Part shown: one piece after another, positions 12,828 to 26,717 of the stretch
How the letters are laid out: each line of letters begins with the position of its first letter
How positions within the stretch are numbered: position 1 is the stretch's first letter
DNA from: Octopus vulgaris
Taxonomy: Eukaryota
Direction of reading: 5' to 3'
Length of the DNA stretch: 64,000 bases
NCBI GenBank assembly: GCA_951406725.2
Contig: OX597817.1
Span: forward strand, 22,940,001-23,004,000
Notes under the pieces: model-generated
The model's input: the letters and a program-made list of their open reading frames with translations, nothing else
The model's database searches: none
Told to the model about the DNA's origin: nothing
Made by a program: the position numbers and the translations under genes

Positions 12828-13898
12828 ACAATTGCAGCGTGGGAGGTGTTTATAAGCCATTTAAGAAACACACAAAAGCCGTTCGATTCACTCCAACATT
12901 TAAGTTTAATTTGTCAAAATATTTTCGTCGCTAAAATCCGCGACCTGTTCACTGACAAAGTCCGTGCTGCATCTAAGAAAGTAACAGTTAGTTCGTCATA
13001 TATATGTATGTACGTATGTATGTGTGTATGTATGCATACATGTGTGTATGTATGTACGTATTCATGTCCGCACATACGCCTGTGTATGCATGTATGTATG
13101 TATGTATGTATATATGTATGTGTGTGTATAAGCACGCACATACACTCTATAAAACATAAAGTTATAAACCTGTAGCGATGGATGGATGTAGAGTGACCAC
13201 TCATCACAACGCTATCAAATTTCAACTCCCTACGGCCGAGGCTAGAAAGTGAATTTATGACGCTTGCTCACAAGAACTATACCCTAAAATCTATTATCAG
13301 ATTTTTATCTCTATATCACAGAACTAATGTTTTACTATTGTTCGTATGTATGTATGTATGTGCGTATGTATGTATGTATGTATGTATGTATGTATGTATG
13401 TATGTATGTATGTATGTATGTATGTATGTATGTATGTATGTACATACGTACGCATGTGCGTATGTATGTATACGCGCCCGTATGCATGTGCCCATGTATG
13501 TGTGTGTGTACATGTACGTGCGTATGTACGTGTGTATGCCCATACGTAGGTATGTATGTATGTTTGTATTCATGTGCTACGTATGTATGTGAGTGTCTAG
13601 GAGAATGGGCAGATGTGTCCGTGAGAGTGTGTACATGTGTATGTGTATGTGAACGTATGTCCGTGTACTGGCATGTGTCCGTCCAAGTTGTGTACATGAC
13701 TGTTACTTAGCTGAAGGTTGTATACATATTTACATATATGTTTGTATAGACGCACACACATATATATATATGTGTGTGGGTGTGTGTTTGTTCCTCTCAT
13801 CGTCGTCTAACCGTGAATGGGTACAACGCCTAGGTGCGACTGTTCGTATCAAACAACGTCTGCTCATACCGTTGTATATAACTGCACATACGCATTGC
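12828..13898 (-). repeat. Inverted pLTR copy
   Basis: Reverse complement of 15807-16865 and 20084-21126, differing mainly in (CATA)n tract length. Confidence 0.9.
12910..12959 (-). ncRNA. Minimal type I hammerhead ribozyme, G3-C8 core variant (pLTR copy 1)
   Basis: Minus strand TTTGTCA-GTGAACA-G-GTCGC ggatttta GCGAC-GAAA-ATAT-TT-TGACAAA. Confidence 0.7.
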
Positions 13899-13947
13899 AA
13901 CCTGTATGTAAGGACTACAGGTGAAAGGGAGAGAGAGAGAGGGGTGG

Positions 13948-15888
13948 TTATAGAATAGTCCTTCTGAATGGGATGTGGATGTTATTCCATTCGGACTTTC
14001 GGTTGAGAGTAGGTTTGTATTCTTGTATACAAACAGCTTCTGTGACCTGTCTCAACATTGCATCGGTGGGATGTGTAGATAGGATGTTCAACTTAAGCTC
14101 CCCTAAGGATCCCTTGTGGCAGTCTACAGCATGTTGGTAGAAGATGGAGTTTGGCTTCCTTTCAATGTAGTTGTCCAGGTGTTCTTTGAACCTATCATTG
14201 ATGCTTCTAGAGGTCTCACCTATGTATGACTCCGGGTTAGCCGCGCAAGCTCCCTCCTGGCACTTAATCTGGTATACAGTGCCCTTGGTTTTACAATTTA
14301 CGTGTGGATTTGTCGAACACACTGCACAATTACTCTGACAGGTGATTGTATCAAATGGATATGATCTGCATAATGCCGATTTGATAGTCCTACCTGTCTT
14401 TTCTACAACTTTAACTTTTAGGCCCGTAGTGCGCAGGACTTTCTTGAATGCCTTACTTAGCTCGTTCATAGGTGTGGCGTCAACGAACATCACTCCGTGA
14501 AATCTCCTGTTATCGTACCAAGTAACGTTTCTCATCTTTTTGTTGGTGTCCCTCTCTAACCTATTCCAGAACTTGTTGCGGTACAGGGGGCATATACCGT
14601 TTTCGTCGTTCCCTAGAATGCGTTCGAATCTAGCTTTCGCTCCTTTGTACACCCTGACTCTATCGTCTTGTGTGTATCCGGAACGTTGCATTCGGAATAT
14701 GTAGTGCTGGATGTGTTGTTGTCGTTCTTGTGGTTGGCATAGTGGTGATACATTCCCTATTACTCTAACTAAGTCTGCCACTAGGATGTTGAGTTTGGCA
14801 GTATTCGACACAGCTGAGTCACTACGGATTACTAGTGGATTAGCCATCGGTTTCTGATAGTGTGAGTGGAGTATACATGGTTTAATGGTACCATTAACTA
14901 TAGCGTCTTCCATCCATAGCTCAGTATCTAGGACGGGTAATCGTTTACTGGGGTGTCTAGAGGGGTAGTCTATGGTAAGTTTTATACTGCTGTGGATAGA
15001 GTCAGCTATGTGTTGTATAGATGTCATCACCTGTTCTTCACTTGGTAGAGGGCCCATAACTGTGTCTGTATTACATTTCACAACAAGGTTAATGTCGTCG
15101 ACGTAACGAGAGTACATAGCCAAGTGGATGTTACGGTTTGCTAGGCACTGTTTAAAACGCTTGTCCCACCATACCATGAAGAGGTTAGCAACGTCACCGG
15201 CGATCCCCACTCCAATAGCACCGCCTTTCGTTTGCTTATACAGTTTGTTGTCAAATTTAAAAATATGTGTTTTTAGCGTAAATCTCAGGCTGACACCGAT
15301 GGCATGTGCGATGGTGGTTCTAATATCGTGTGCACTTGAGGGTGGGTAGTCCGGCTTTGTCCATCCCTGCCAACGCTCACAGTGAGTCTTCCTGTAAGCC
15401 GAGGTAATGGTAGGTGGTCTACCGCGTTTGTTACGGGTGGGACAAGCATATAGAAGGTTATTGCGCGACAGGTATTCATTGGTACACGTCAGGGCCAGGA
15501 AGAGCCCTAGTTCATATACATCCACATTCTTAAATATCATACCACTCTCACTAACTATTTCTATACATTTATCGACAGCAAAGTCTATATCGATGGAGGG
15601 GTATAGTGATACCACATCCATGCTACCCACGATGTGGTTCTTGAGGTCACACGTGTTGTTGCATTCGCGGATCCTGCTAAGGAGGTCCTCAGTACTGTCA
15701 CATACATCTGCAGATAGTTCTATTAACGGTCGTAGGAATTGTGAGAGAAAGTATGATATTTTGTGGTTGTTTGCATTGTTGGCACCACAAACGGGTCGGG
15801 TGGGTGGCAATGCGTATGTGCAGTTATATACAACGGTATGAGCAGACGTTGTTTGATACGAACAGTCGCACCTAGGCGTTGTACCCAT
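13948..15888 (-). CDS. Penelope-like reverse transcriptase / GIY-YIG endonuclease, 646 aa; first 27 aa come from the antisense pLTR across the inversion junction
   Basis: RT motifs SMDVVSLYPSI, YKQTKGGAIG, YSRYVDDI and LPVLD. Cys-rich linker CQSNCAVC..C. GIY-YIG motifs GTVYQIKC..SYIGETSRSINDRFKEH and EAVCI..PTLN. Confidence 0.85.
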   Translation of the reverse strand: MGTTPRCDCSYQTTSAHTVVYNCTYALPPTRPVCGANNANNHKISYFLSQFLRPLIELSADVCDSTEDLLSRIRECNNTCDLKNHIVGSMDVVSLYPSIDIDFAVDKCIEIVSESGMIFKNVDVYELGLFLALTCTNEYLSRNNLLYACPTRNKRGRPPTITSAYRKTHCERWQGWTKPDYPPSSAHDIRTTIAHAIGVSLRFTLKTHIFKFDNKLYKQTKGGAIGVGIAGDVANLFMVWWDKRFKQCLANRNIHLAMYSRYVDDINLVVKCNTDTVMGPLPSEEQVMTSIQHIADSIHSSIKLTIDYPSRHPSKRLPVLDTELWMEDAIVNGTIKPCILHSHYQKPMANPLVIRSDSAVSNTAKLNILVADLVRVIGNVSPLCQPQERQQHIQHYIFRMQRSGYTQDDRVRVYKGAKARFERILGNDENGICPLYRNKFWNRLERDTNKKMRNVTWYDNRRFHGVMFVDATPMNELSKAFKKVLRTTGLKVKVVEKTGRTIKSALCRSYPFDTITCQSNCAVCSTNPHVNCKTKGTVYQIKCQEGACAANPESYIGETSRSINDRFKEHLDNYIERKPNSIFYQHAVDCHKGSLGELKLNILSTHPTDAMLRQVTEAVCIQEYKPTLNRKSEWNNIHIPFRRTIL

Positions 15889-16699
15889 TCACGGTTAGAC
15901 GACGATGAGAGGAACAAACACACACCCACACACATATATATATATGTGTGTGCGTCTATACAAACATATATGTAAATATGTATACAACCTTCAGCTAAGT
16001 AACAGTCATGTACACAACTTGGACGGACACATGCCAGTACACGGACATACGTTCACATACACATACACATGTACACACTCTCACGGACACATCTGCCCAT
16101 TCTCCTAGACACTCACATACATACGTAGCACATGAATACAAACATACATACATACCTACGTATGGGCATACACACGTACATACGCACGTACATGTACACA
16201 CACACATACATGGGCACATGCATACGGGCGCGTATACATACATACGCACATGCGTACGTATGTACATACATACATACATACATACATACATACATACATA
16301 CATACATACATACATACATACATACGCACATACATACATACATACGAACAATAGTAAAACATTAGTTCTGTGATATAGAGATAAAAATCTGATAATAGAT
16401 TTTAGGGTATAGTTCTTGTGAGCAAGCGTCATAAATTCACTTTCTAGCCTCGGCCGTAGGGAGTTGAAATTTGATAGCGTTGTGATGAGTGGTCACTCTA
16501 CATCCATCCATCGCTACAGGTTTATAACTTTATGTTTTATAGAGTGTATGTGCGTGCTTATACACACACATACATATATACATACATACATACATACATA
16601 CATGCATACACAGGCGTATGTGCGGACATGAATACGTACATACATACACACATGTATGCATACATACACACATACATACGTACATACATATATATGACG

Positions 16700-16720
16700 A
16701 ACTAACTGTTACTTTCTTAG
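16700..16720 (+). promoter_or_regulatory. Candidate branchpoint plus 3' splice acceptor in the pLTR
   Basis: AACTAAC-TGTTACTTTCTTAG: a CTAAC branch motif, short pyrimidine tract and AG. Present in all three pLTR copies. Confidence 0.4.
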
Positions 16721-16733
16721 ATGCAGCACGGAC

Positions 16734-16783
16734 TTTGTCAGTGAACAGGTCGCGGATTTTAGCGACGAAAATATTTTGACAAA
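16734..16783 (+). ncRNA. Minimal type I hammerhead ribozyme, G3-C8 core variant (pLTR copy 2)
   Basis: 7-bp stem I TTTGTCA/TGACAAA, core GTGAACA(+G), 5-bp stem II GTCGC/GCGAC, GAAA, and palindromic stem III AAAATATTTT. Predicted cleavage after 16776. Confidence 0.7.
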
Positions 16784-16832
16784 TTAAACTTCAATGTTGG
16801 AGTGAATCGAACGGCTTTTGTGTGTTTCTTAA

Positions 16833-19800
16833 ATGGCTTATAAACACCTCCCACGCTGCAATTGTTTTCGTTTCAGCACACGATCTCAGATCAAATTACT
16901 TGCTATGCGAGTACATCTCCGTAATTCCGAAAGCTTGAGCCAGGCTACCAAAACTCTGAGGACAGCCGTTACTTGTTGCTTGAGAAGAATAACAGCTAAG
17001 CAACAGCTTCATTTCATTAGACACTGCATCTCACTGAAGGTTTACCCGAAAAGGATTTACAATACAGTCGAAGCACTGAACCTGAAGAAGGGACAAGCGT
17101 CGAGACTAAAACGTATTTTAATGACGAACCTTAAGTCCGAGCTATACACACACCTTGCCACTAAAGACAAGGAAAAGCGAGATGCCCTCGCTAAAGTGAA
17201 GGACTTACTTACTAATCAATAATTCAAACAGTTGAAAGAACTACTCCGTCGTGAAAGTAACTCTGTATGGAACAGGTGCGTACAACACTTTGAAGAGAAA
17301 CTGTCATGGACGATACAACTACCATACAACCAAAAAACAACTAAACAGTTTGTCAAAACTGAATCGATTGATGGGATCTCTATGAACGACAAACCAGTAG
17401 AGGACGACCAGCTAACAAGCAACGTAAGAGTGTACGGTGGAGTACAACTGGATACTAATGAACTCGCGGCCCTGGAACTTCCTCCAAAGTTCGCCACGTA
17501 TAATAAGGTTAGTAAGATCTCTATACTATCTGACATTGAAAAGTGCTTCACCAAACTTAGATGGAGAACACACTTAACCAAAACCACAACCAAAATCCTG
17601 ACACACAATACATGCCTGACTATAACCGTTGCTTTTATGATAAACGTGACATGTCATTCGACATGAAAAGGGTCTACCCTACCAACTTACCCTTCAACAA
17701 AAGAGTATGCATGCCACCCTATACTGACGCTGCTTTGGAAGCGAAGTTTACACTTACTAAAGCCAAGATTCTATCAGCCTTCTCCAATTACACCCAAAGG
17801 CAGATACAAGAACGATCGGTATATAAGACCCACGATCATAACACCAAAATTAAGAAAGGCCTTAACATATTAAAAAGACGCATCAAAAACAGAGAGATTG
17901 TATGTTTCCCGACTGACAAATCAGGTAGGATGTCTGTTGACAACATACCTAATTACATCACGAACATGCAACCACACATCAGAGACATGACAGAAACCAC
18001 AACACTCGAATATATCGAGAACGAAAAGATCGTCAATGCTCACATGGGGATGTGGAGTATAATTCTCCAGTCGGAGAAGCGCACAGCTAACAACTTCTTA
18101 ACCACCAACAACGAAATCCCACCCCTATATGGCCTTCGCAAAGATCACAAGAGCCACACGGACAATATACTTGGGCCACCCACCCGACCCGTTTGTGGTG
18201 CCAACAATGCAAACAACCACAAAATATCATACTTTCTCTCACAATTCCTACGACCGTTAATAGAACTATCTGCAGATGTATGTGACAGTACTGAGGACCT
18301 CCTTAGCAGGATCCGCGAATGCAACAACACGTGTGACCTCAAGAACCACATCGTGGGTAGCATGGATGTGGTATCACTATACCCCTCCATCGATATAGAC
18401 TTTGCTGTCGATAAATGTATAGAAATAGTTAGTGAGAGTGGTATGATATTTAAGAATGTGGATGTATATGAACTAGGGCTCTTCCTGGCCCTGACGTGTA
18501 CCAATGAATACCTGTCGCGCAATAACCTTCTATATGCTTGTCCCACCCGTAACAAACGCGGTAGACCACCTACCATTACCTCGGCTTACAGGAAGACTCA
18601 CTGTGAGCGTTGGCAGGGATGGACAAAGCCGGACTACCCACCCTCAAGTGCACACGATATTAGAACCACCATCGCACATGCCATCGGTGTCAGCCTGAGA
18701 TTTACGCTAAAAACACATATTTTTAAATTTGACAACAAACTGTATAAGCAAACGAAAGGCGGTGCTATTGGAGTGGGGATCGCCGGTGACGTTGCTAACC
18801 TCTTCATGGTATGGTGGGACAAGCGTTTTAAACAGTGCCTAGCAAACCGTAACATCCACTTGGCTATGTACTCTCGTTACGTCGACGACATTAACCTTGT
18901 TGTGAAATGTAATACAGACACAGTTATGGGCCCTCTACCAAGTGAAGAACAGGTGATGACATCTATACAACACATAGCTGACTCTATCCACAGCAGTATA
19001 AAACTTACCATAGACTACCCCTCTAGACACCCCAGTAAACGATTACCCGTCCTAGATACTGAGCTATGGATGGAAGACGCTATAGTTAATGGTACCATTA
19101 AACCATGTATACTCCACTCACACTATCAGAAACCGATGGCTAATCCACTAGTAATCCGTAGTGACTCAGCTGTGTCGGATACTGCCAAACTCAACATCCT
19201 AGTGGCAGACTTAGTTAGAGTAATAGGGAATGTATCACCACTATGCCAACCACAAGAACGACAACAACACATCCAGCACTACATATTCCGAATGCAACGT
19301 TCCGGATACACACAAGACGATAGAGTCAGGGTGTACAAAGGAGCGAAAGCTAGATTCGAACGCATTCTAGGGAACGACGAAAACGGTATATGCCCCCTGT
19401 ACCGCAACAAGTTCTGGAATAGGTTAGAGAGGGACACCAACAAAAAGATGAGAAACGTTACTTGGTACGATAACAGGAGATTTCACGGAGTGATGTTCGT
19501 TGACGCCACACCTATGAACGAGCTAAGTAAGGCATTCAAGAAAGTCCTGCGCACTACGGGCCTAAAAGTTAAAGTTGTAGAAAAGACAGGTAGGACTATC
19601 AAATCGGCATTATGCAGATCATATCCATTTGATAGAATCACCTGTCAGAGTAATTGTGCAGTGTGTTCGACAAATCCACACGTAAATTGTAAAACCAAGG
19701 GCACTGTATACCAGATTAAGTGCCAGGAGGGAGCTTGCGCGGCTAACCCGGAGTCATACATAGGTGAGACCTCTAGAAGCATCAATGATAGGTTCAAAGA

Positions 19801-20034
19801 ACACCTGGACAACTACATTGAAAGGAAGCCAAACTCCATCTTCTACCAACATGCTGTAGACTGCCACAAGGGATCCTTAGGGAGCTTAAGTTGAACATCC
19901 TATCTACACATCCCACCGATGCAATGTTGAGACAGGTCACAGAAGCTGTTTGTATACAAGAATACAAACCTACTCTCAACCGAAAGTCCGAATGGAATAA
20001 CATCCAGATCCCATTCAGAAGGACTATTCTATAA
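16833..20034 (+). pseudogene. Full-length Penelope-like ORF (N-terminal domain, RT, GIY-YIG), interrupted as assembled
   Basis: ORF pieces 16833-17222 (in-frame TAA), 17232-~17570, a frameshift after KLRW, then 17561-19894. A 1-G deletion near 19880 is seen relative to the inverted copy, and the natural stop is at 20032-20034. Confidence 0.85.
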
Positions 20035-20083
20035 CCACCCCTCTCTCTCTCTCCCTTTCACCTGTAGTCCTTACATACAGGTT

Positions 20084-21179
20084 GCAATGCGTATGTGCAG
20101 TTATATACAACGGTATGAGCAGACGTTGTTTGATACGAACAGTCGCACCTAGGCGTTGTACCCATTCACGGTTAGACGACGATGAGAGGAACAAACACAC
20201 ACCCACACACATATATATATATGTGTGTGCGTCTATACAAACATATATGTAAATATGTATACAACCTTCAGCTAAGTAACAGTCATGTACACAACTTGGA
20301 CGGACACATGCCAGTACACGGACATACGTTCACATACACATACACATGTACACACTCTCACGGACACATCTGCCCATTCTCCTAGACACTCACATACATA
20401 CGTAGCACATGAATACAAACATACATACATACCTACGTATGGGCATACACACGTACATACGCACGTACATGTACACACACACATACATGGGCACATGCAT
20501 ACGGGCGCGTATACATACATACGCACATGCGTACGTATGTACATACATACATACATACATACATACATACATACATACATACATACATACGCACATACAT
20601 ACATACATACGAACAATAGTAAAACATTAGTTCTGTGATATAGAGATAAAAATCTGATAATAGATTTTAGGGTATAGTTCTTGTGAGCAAGCGTCATAAA
20701 TTCACTTTCTAGCCTCGGCCGTAGGGAGTTGAAATTTGATAGCGTTGTGATGAGTGGTCACTCTACATCCATCCATCGCTACAGGTTTATAACTTTATGT
20801 TTTATAGAGTGTATGTGCGTGCTTATACACACACATACATATATACATACATACATACATACATGCATACACAGGCGTATGTGCGGACATGAATACGTAC
20901 ATACATACACACATGTATGCATACATACACACATACATACGTACATACATATATATGACGAACTAACTGTTACTTTCTTAGATGCAGCACGGACTTTGTC
21001 AGTGAACAGGTCGCGGATTTTAGCGACGAAAATATTTTGACAAATTAAACTTAAATGTTGGAGTGAATCGAACGGCTTTTGTGTGTTTCTTAAATGGCTT
21101 ATAAACACCTCCCACGCTGCAATTGTTTTCGTTTCAGCACACGATCTCAGATCAAATTACTTGCTATGCGAGTACATCT

Positions 21180-21181
<2 letters not shown>
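20084..21181 (+). repeat. Downstream pseudo-LTR
   Basis: Direct repeat of 15807-16920. Ends GTACATCTCC directly before (TA)n. Confidence 0.9.
20995..21044 (+). ncRNA. Minimal type I hammerhead ribozyme, G3-C8 core variant (pLTR copy 3)
   Basis: Identical to 16734-16783. Predicted cleavage after 21037. Confidence 0.7.
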
Positions 21182-21219
<38 letters not shown>

Positions 21220-25666: not shown

Positions 25667-25701
<35 letters not shown>

Positions 25702-25703
<2 letters not shown>

Positions 25704-26717
25704 TTTAAGGAAGCTGACAAATACAAACAAGAAATCATACCACCTAATAAACATGAAGAAGAAGAAGAAGAAGATGAAGAAACAACAAAAGCTATAAAAA
25801 AAATGAAATCCAAACTAAAAATAGAACAGCAACGAACCATGATAAAACGATGGCAAGAAAAGCCCCTTCATGGTAAATACTGGACTAAACTAAACGCAAA
25901 AGAAATAGACAAAGAAAAATCCCAGCAATGGTTGAGAAGCTCAGGACTCAAAGCAGAAACAGAGGGATTTTTAATTGCAGCACAAGACCAAAGCCTCCCC
26001 ACCAGAAATTACCAAAAACATGTAATGAAAAGAAATATTACAAGTAACTGCAGAATATGTGGAGATGGACAAGAAACAATAAATCATATTATCTCTAGCT
26101 GCCCAGTCCTGGCTAAGAAGGAATATATTCACAGACATGACAGAGTTGGAACTTACATACATTGGAAGCTATGCCAACATTATGGAATAACAACAGAAAA
26201 AAGATGGTATAGGCACACACCAGAAAAGGTCACAGAAAACGAGAAAGCAACCATACTCTGGGATATGCCGATACACACAGATAGAGAAATTAAGGCCAAC
26301 AGACCAGATATAGTTGTCAGAGACCATGAAGAAAAAAATGCTTTCTAATTGATGTATCAGTACCGGCAGATGACAACGTGTCTCTAAAAGAAATGGAGAA
26401 ACTCTCAAAATACAAAGACCTGGAAATAGAGGTAACTAGAATGTGGAATCTGAAAACAGAAACAATTCCTATCATAGTAGGTGCATTAGGCATGATAAAA
26501 AAATATTCAGACAAATACATAACAAAAACACCAGGACTTACAAACACATATAACATACAGAAAATTGCACTACTGGGCACTGCACACATCCTACGCAGAA
26601 CACTTTCCATACAATAACCATCAGAGCATCACAACAAATCACAGCACAAACCCAAGGCACACAGAGCTGTGCTCGGTAGTGAAGTGAAAGCACGCTATAA
26701 AAATAAAAATAAAACTA

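What the first reader, a model, noticed from the sequence alone, without database searches (positions are those of the whole stretch)
16734..16783. Penelope pLTRs carry a hammerhead ribozyme with an inverted G3-C8 catalytic core
Seen: TTTGTCA-GTGAACA-G-GTCGC(ggatttta)GCGAC-GAAA-ATAT-TT-TGACAAA, identical in all three pLTRs (12910-12959 -, 16734-16783 +, 20995-21044 +). It folds as a minimal type I hammerhead: 7-bp stem I, 5-bp stem II, GAAA and a palindromic stem III. The core is GUGAACA instead of CUGANGA, so both partners of the 3-8 tertiary pair are swapped. There is also an extra G after A9 and a UUU cleavage triplet. Established: C3-G8 is a Watson-Crick pair in the active fold, and Penelope-like elements carry minimal hammerheads thought to cleave as dimers via palindromic stem III. 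Inference: the compensatory double change suggests selection for an active but attenuated ribozyme that CTGATGA-based searches would miss. G3-C8 variants may already be reported in other taxa.
Basis: partly seen in the sequence, partly recalled or inferred. Interest (0 to 1): 0.85.

Follow-up and report, generated by a model that had tools for sequence, protein, structure and literature searches.

The report
Octopus retroelement hammerhead with swapped core
A jumping gene present in thousands of copies in an octopus genome carries a hammerhead self-cutting RNA motif whose paired core letters are swapped (G3-C8 instead of C3-G8); related elements keep that pair in other forms, so it is likely a slow but working natural variant, although cutting is untested and the inserted copies carry the motif uncut.

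Summary
Confirmed. The 50-mer is identical at all three places and folds into hammerhead stems I and II, in the pLTRs of a Neptune-like Penelope element of an octopus genome. The family is large (9,739 exact matches to a downstream 24-mer); 77 of 79 sampled copies have G3 and 80 of 83 have C8. Subfamilies change loop II but not the core. Homologous elements carry C3-G8 (sister family) or U3-A8, so G3-C8 is a derived pair-preserving swap. Rfam misses it. The extra nucleotide after A9 and U17 are normal for Penelope hammerheads. Engineered C3G/G8C is known to rescue a Penelope hammerhead partly; I found no natural G3-C8 in print, but four key papers were not available. New here: most copies are short and start about 15 nt upstream of stem I, often after an untemplated G; none of 91 starts at the cleavage site. 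Uncut, likely capped RNA is therefore what gets inserted; a canonical-core family behaves the same. Against strict selection: stems are not significantly more conserved than flanks, and relatives carry U3·G8 or C9. This scan noted G3-C8 before in phages and protist elements. New variant of a known kind; activity untested.

The parts
16734..16783 (+). Minimal type I hammerhead motif, G3-C8 core, inserted G after A9, palindromic stem III, UUU triplet; predicted cleavage 16776|16777 (upstream pLTR)
20995..21044 (+). Identical hammerhead in the downstream pLTR, 4,261 nt from the first
12910..12959 (-). Identical hammerhead in the inverted, 5'-truncated copy
16716..16722 (+). Inferred RNA 5' end (peak at A16719): 43 of 91 genomic copies begin here, often after an untemplated G
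16702..16720 (+). Branch-point/polypyrimidine/AG-like sequence (possible 3' splice site) overlapping the inferred start; consensus recalled, splicing untested
   Evidence: no matching donor seen
16833..20034 (+). PLE ORF region (N-terminal domain, DKG motif, RT, CX3CX2C linker, GIY-YIG); broken by a stop at 17220-17222 and frameshifts near 17561-17666 and 19882-19894
15803..16920 (+). Upstream pLTR (3' UTR part of a truncated tandem copy running into the ORF start)
20080..21182 (+). Downstream pLTR; ends at 21182 in (TA)n; 21127-21182 is the 56-nt tail present at this end only
12828..15808 (-). Inverted 5'-truncated copy (RT C-terminal part, intact GIY-YIG end, pLTR); ends in (TA)n at the position equivalent to 16865
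16862..16926 (+). Two clusters of copy 3' ends (16862-16867 and 16923-16926), the inferred internal RT start sites

Best explanation
This is the hammerhead of a Neptune-like Penelope element in which the core pair is swapped to G3-C8, and it is likely still able to cut but slowly, probably only when folded by the element's protein or as a dimer, so that uncut RNA survives to be copied. Shown: the motif, its fixation across the family's subfamilies, its homology to C3-G8 and U3-A8 hammerheads at the same place in related elements, and that copies run through the cleavage site and mostly begin about 15 nt upstream of stem I. Inferred: RNA polymerase II starts near A16719; the element's protein primes reverse transcription at two internal sites about 90 and 150 nt downstream of the cut site; priming in the upstream pLTR runs off the capped 5' end and makes the thousands of short copies, priming in the downstream pLTR makes long copies. 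Inferred: G3 pairs with C8 as C3 does with G8, and U17 avoids the inhibitory G3-C17 pair. Untested: any cleavage.
For: Unfiltered descriptor scan: every homologous family with a hit has a Watson-Crick 3-8 pair (sister family C-G, L118 C-G, L120 U-A, L121 C-G, L130 C-G, this family G-C); L122 U-A and L123 C-G came from a pair-filtered listing. The window family is sister to the C-G family (100/99). Subfamily-level changes fall in loop II (4 of 8 columns), not in the structured part (1 of 35, a CpG; Fisher p 0.003); the one stem I change keeps a U.G pair. G3-C8 holds in 71 of the first 100 of 311 copies of an older loop type. All other core letters are canonical. Engineered C3G/G8C partly restores a PLE hammerhead, which cut only with protein, and unprocessed RNA was the insertion substrate (PMC11167929). 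G3-C8 was more active with G17 than C17 (PMC3884650, data not shown there). 5' ends: 43 of 91 at 16716-16722, 0 of 91 at 16777; G before A16719 in 29 of 46 copies, 14 of 22 with non-inverted flanks; untemplated G is read as a cap mark in L1/SVA (PMC4859970).
Against: No cleavage was measured. The structured part is not significantly more conserved than the flanks (1 of 35 vs 11 of 137, p 0.46). Only one copy with a two-sided stem II change was seen (L275). Relatives in the same genome depart from the core: C9 in the sister family with intact ORFs, U3.G8 in 9 of 18 old copies, which suggests relaxed catalytic constraint. 21 of 27 related loci showed no hammerhead (many contigs short). The double hammerhead is not favoured by nearest-neighbour energy. 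Some -1 Gs come from inverted arms or duplicated loci.
Confidence: 0.6

Rival explanations
1. The motif is a catalytically dead or near-dead hammerhead relic. The fold or sequence is kept for another job near the RNA 5' end (protein binding, internal promoter, splice-site context), and G3-C8 was reached by drift through unpaired states.
For: Insertion needs no cleavage: copies run through the site, and HHR mutants did not impair insertion in vitro. Relatives carry C9 or U3.G8. The motif lies within 15-65 nt of the inferred start, where Penelope has internal promoter elements (PMC2377424 passages). C8-to-G copies (33 of 100 listed of 434) outnumber G3-to-C copies (10 of 100 listed of 284).
Against: Three different Watson-Crick pairs at 3-8 among six homologous families found without a pair filter (24 of 720 orderings by hand arithmetic, families not independent). 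All other core letters and the palindromic stem III are intact. G3.G8 copies are scattered over subfamilies and are not a master form.
Confidence: 0.3
2. The ribozyme is efficient in vivo, and cleavage either destroys the template or releases unit-length RNA, so that only the uncut minority appears among insertions.
For: A canonical C3-G8 family in the same genome also shows 0 of 30 copies starting at its cleavage site, so insertion ends cannot rank activity. About 8 of 100 listed copies in a junction-enriched search start at 16777 (read by eye; six checked).
Against: Junctions near the site are flat rather than peaked (by eye 8, 6, 9, 6, 6 copies for 0-4 matching upstream letters). Published metazoan PLE hammerheads are slow, and G3-C8 rescue is partial.
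Confidence: 0.1

Closest known systems
Minimal type I hammerheads of metazoan Penelope-like elements (Cervera & de la Pena 2014, PMC4209133)
   Same: In pLTRs upstream of the ORF start; nucleotide inserted between 9 and 10.1; G10.1-C11.1; short palindromic stem III; U17 common; thousands of dispersed solo copies.
   Different: G3-C8 core: none of the 56 rows of their Fig. S3 has it (C3-G8 or U3-A8 only); inserted letter is G (their consensus H; one row has G); stem I is longer (7 bp).
Natural U3-A8 core variants (Perreault 2011, PMC3088659; Cervera 2014)
   Same: Natural covariation at the same 3-8 pair.
   Different: Those need two transitions and keep pyrimidine-purine order; G3-C8 needs two transversions and reverses it.
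Anolis Poseidon element PAc hammerhead and its engineered C3G/G8C mutant (PMC11167929)
   Same: Same core as the engineered double mutant; internal RT start sites giving a tail; uncut RNA as template.
   Different: Natural rather than engineered; Neptune-like (CX2-5CxxC linker, (TA)n targets); hammerhead lies wholly upstream of the likely ATG.
Non-LTR retrozymes (PMC7229834; bioRxiv 10.64898/2026.07.22.740005)
   Same: Short non-autonomous sequences with type I hammerheads, related to PLE pLTRs.
   Different: Copies here are dispersed singles or inverted pairs with PLE tail ends, not head-to-tail arrays delimited by the cleavage site.

Membership tests
Hammerhead ribozyme (type I) | Stems I and II around the core, open at stem I | tested here: met
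Hammerhead ribozyme (type I) | U4 G5 A6, A9, G12 A13 A14, A15.1-U16.1, H17 | tested here: met
   no subfamily-level change in 91 copies
Hammerhead ribozyme (type I) | Literal C3 and G8 (CUGANGA) | tested here: not met
   G3 and C8
Hammerhead ribozyme (type I) | Watson-Crick pair between positions 3 and 8 | tested here: met
   G-C here; C-G and U-A in homologs; pairing in the fold is inferred
Hammerhead ribozyme (type I) | Score against Rfam hammerhead models | tested here: not met
   no hit up to E 10
Hammerhead ribozyme (type I) | Site-specific self-cleavage | not testable with these tools
   needs an assay; genomic 5' ends uninformative
PLE minimal hammerhead | Located in pLTRs of an RT + GIY-YIG element | tested here: met
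   Pfam gave no hit on the window ORF and only sub-threshold RVT_1 and GIY-YIG hits on homolog P0045
PLE minimal hammerhead | Inserted nucleotide 9/10.1, G10.1-C11.1, palindromic stem III | tested here: met
PLE minimal hammerhead | Cleaves as a dimer | tested here: inconclusive
   dimer -27.2 vs two monomers -29.4 kcal/mol, model lacks tertiary contacts
Neptune clade of PLEs | CX2-5CxxC linker before a C-terminal GIY-YIG; (TA)n targets | tested here: met
   against PMC8557442 passages; the linker is shared with Nematis
Neptune clade of PLEs | Phylogenetic placement with reference Neptune RTs | not tested
   tree had no named reference PLEs
Non-LTR retrozyme | Head-to-tail tandem units bounded by the cleavage site | tested here: not met
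   91 sampled copies are dispersed or inverted, none starts at the cleavage site

The most novel reading that the evidence does not exclude
G3-C8 is a third natural, working hammerhead core, carried here by about ten thousand copies in an animal genome and invisible to CUGANGA and Rfam searches; it is a protein-gated ribozyme tuned so that capped, uncut RNA can be reverse-transcribed from inside, and the short copies are a genomic record of that mechanism.
Probability: 0.35. Interest if true: 0.7.

Novelty: new variant of a known kind. Interest (0 to 1): 0.45.

Why it matters
If it cuts, nature uses the core inversion so far known only from mutagenesis, and hammerhead censuses built on CUGANGA or UUGANAA miss whole families. 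The family also offers a natural test of an open question, whether Penelope elements need their ribozyme: one genome holds G3-C8, C3-G8/C9, U3.G8 and canonical cores that can be assayed side by side, and the copy ends show that uncut RNA is what gets inserted.

Tried and rejected
Rfam scans: no hammerhead. Pfam and PDB sequence search: nothing useful on the window ORF. Other G3-C8 families in the genome: a loose pattern gave 995 matches against 1,766 in the control, and no second family among the 100 listed. Viral contigs: no PLE relative; GTDB: one locus, no hammerhead seen. Sequencing runs: no RNA holder listed; the four runs laid were contigs, which cannot show RNA ends. A G3.G8 master subfamily as evolutionary intermediate: rejected, 7 of 100 in the loop type where it seemed enriched. 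A peak of 5' junctions at the cleavage site: not seen. Splicing as the cause of the 5'-end cluster: no fitting donor in the window pLTR and no long shared upstream exon, but three independent flanks share four upstream letters, so it is not excluded. The sigma-70 scan is irrelevant to a eukaryote. Extra G and UUU as novelty: rejected.

Full report
Observation. The 50-mer lies exactly at 16734-16783 (+), 20995-21044 (+) and 12910-12959 (-). It folds into a 7-bp stem I and a 5-bp stem II (z -3.4), which persist in the 207-nt context. The core reads G3 U4 G5 A6 A7 C8 A9, an inserted G, stem II opening with G10.1-C11.1, G12 A13 A14 A15.1, a self-complementary hexamer and U17; the predicted cut is 16776|16777. 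Rfam finds no hammerhead there.

The element. The copies sit in one composite insertion: an inverted 5'-truncated copy (12828-15808) followed by pLTR, ORF region and pLTR (15803-21182), both ends abutting (TA)n and differing by a 56-nt tail. The ORF region has DKG, RT and GIY-YIG motifs and a CX3CX2C linker (motif names from PMC8557442 passages), so it is Neptune-like; placement against reference RTs was not tested. This copy is broken by a stop and two frameshifts. The best homolog is labelled Octopus vulgaris (54%) and matches this 2.8-Gb genome at 100%, so the host is an octopus. Only 2 of 150 scored matches cover the whole N-terminal 129 aa at high identity, against 9,739 exact matches to a 24-mer that begins at the cut site: the family is mostly short copies.

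Is G3-C8 the family form? A 34-mer over the core has 1,836 exact copies; 2,322 more have the same core and stem II with another loop II. In 91 copies picked by the downstream 24-mer only (the first matches on contig C1; a few share flanks and are not independent), G3 is in 77 of 79 and C8 in 80 of 83 copies covering those columns. An older loop type has G3-C8 in 71 of the first 100 of 311. Columns with a shared variant (10% or more) number 4 of 8 in loop II, 1 of 35 in the structured part and 11 of 137 in flanks; loop against structure p 0.003, structure against flank p 0.46. So the loop is free, but extra conservation of the stems over flanks is not shown. A stem I change in 17 of 91 copies keeps a U.G pair; one copy has a two-sided stem II change (L275). 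The G3-C8 core also appears in contig ends of runs with three different organism labels; these may be close relatives.

Homologs. A descriptor scan without a 3-8 filter found, at the pLTR position, C3-G8 in the sister family of this genome (which has C at position 9) and in L118, L121, L130, and U3-A8 in L120. A looser, pair-filtered listing added L122 (U-A) and L123 (C-G). 21 of the 27 outside loci showed no hammerhead, many being short contigs. In a tree of 22 RT segments the window family is sister to the C3-G8 family (100/99), inside a clade with L118 and L120 (midpoint root, six short loci left out). G3-C8 is therefore derived, and three Watson-Crick pairs occur at this position. Against strict constraint: old relatives sharing stems I and II show U3.G8 in 9 of 18, C3-G8 in 3, U3-A8 in 2, unpaired in 4.

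What the copy ends say. 3' ends cluster at 16862-16867 and 16923-16926, the two-site tail that Frangieh et al. tie to internal RT initiation (PMC11167929; passages and section 3 part 1). 5' ends: 8 of 91 run upstream of 16713, 48 start at 16713-16726 (43 at 16716-16722), 35 start at 16734-16768 (some of those scored 16734 are alignment stops at an indel), none at 16769-16777. A G that the template lacks precedes A16719 in 29 of 46 copies, 14 of 22 with non-inverted flanks (22 of 36); some are explained by inverted arms or duplicates. Untemplated G is read as a copied cap in L1 and SVA (PMC4859970, passages). I infer a capped transcript starting about 15 nt upstream of stem I; a 3'-splice-site-like sequence ends at 16720, so splicing is an open alternative. 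A search enriched for junctions next to the cut site gave 461 matches; by eye most of the 100 listed are mutated intact copies and the true junctions are flat, about 8 at 16777. Uncut RNA is thus the template. A canonical C3-G8 family (7,813 pattern matches) also has 0 of 30 copies starting at its cut site, so this does not rank activity.

Mechanism. Most likely (0.6): a slow, conditional ribozyme. G3-C8 would hold the active-site pair; U17 would avoid a G3-C17 mispair (inferred from PMC3884650 passage, data not shown there). A transcript from the upstream pLTR would hold two hammerheads 4.26 kb apart, but the double hammerhead scores -27.2 against -29.4 kcal/mol for two monomers, so help from protein is likely, as found for PAc. 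Rivals: dead relic kept for another role (0.3), efficient cutter whose products are not inserted (0.1).

Literature. Cervera 2014 (main text parts 1-2 of 4, supplement file 2 parts 1-2 of 3; file 1 not searchable): inserted nucleotide and palindromic stem III are conserved, U3-A8 is natural, no G3-C8 in 56 rows. Perreault 2011 (passages): natural U3-A8. Engineered C3G/G8C gives partial rescue. Also seen as passages only: PMC6765202, PMC6155905, PMC7229834, PMC2377424, PMC8557442 (plus a supplement term search); bioRxiv 2026.07.22.740005 part 1 of 5. Searches showed no natural G3-C8 in the listings or passages read. Not held: Lunse 2017, Przybilski & Hammann 2007, Hammann 2012, Arkhipova 2017; these and their supplements may bear on novelty.

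Earlier scan notes report G3-C8 in phages and in protist PLEs (unchecked). One narrow viral scan gave 54 matches, 12 with C8; one (L344, 170-kb contig) reads as a full type I G3-C8 hammerhead. Verdict: a real, high-copy natural core variant of a known ribozyme in a known element class; activity untested; interest 0.45.

Noticed in passing
L111-L116 (e.g. L112:2137), L120:2497: The sister PLE family, with many intact ~1,310-aa ORFs, has a hammerhead with C at position 9; a metagenome relative has C9 with U3-A8.
   Followed up: partly
L145-L162: Old related family in the same genome with U3.G8 in 9 of 18 copies, suggesting a wobble master form.
   Followed up: partly
window 16833-17219; G000:C3:178452969: Only two full N-terminal matches of this family against ~10,000 short copies; the window holds one of the few near-full-length copies.
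   Followed up: partly
L117:6238-6292, L283-L312: Unrelated canonical C3-G8 minimal hammerhead family, 7,813 pattern matches, often next to (TAA)n, starting ~50 nt upstream of stem I.
   Followed up: partly
L397-L416: C8-to-G copies are about five times more frequent than G3-to-C copies, though both are the same transversion; scattered over subfamilies, unexplained.
   Followed up: partly
L036, L038, L229, L236, L265: Many short insertions are inverted pairs joined near their 5' ends, one arm with the tail and one without.
   Followed up: no
window 16702-16720: Branch-point, pyrimidine tract and AG just upstream of the hammerhead, like the D. virilis Penelope intron that ends at helix I.
   Followed up: partly
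L344:61-95 (-): Type I hammerhead with G3-C8 and a long stem III in a 170-kb viral contig.
   Followed up: partly
window 25668-26348 (+): 226-aa ORF resembling the C-terminal zinc-knuckle/endonuclease part of a non-LTR retrotransposon (resemblance recalled).
   Followed up: no
L144: PLE relative on a 2.7-kb contig of a bacterial MAG, probably eukaryotic contamination.
   Followed up: no
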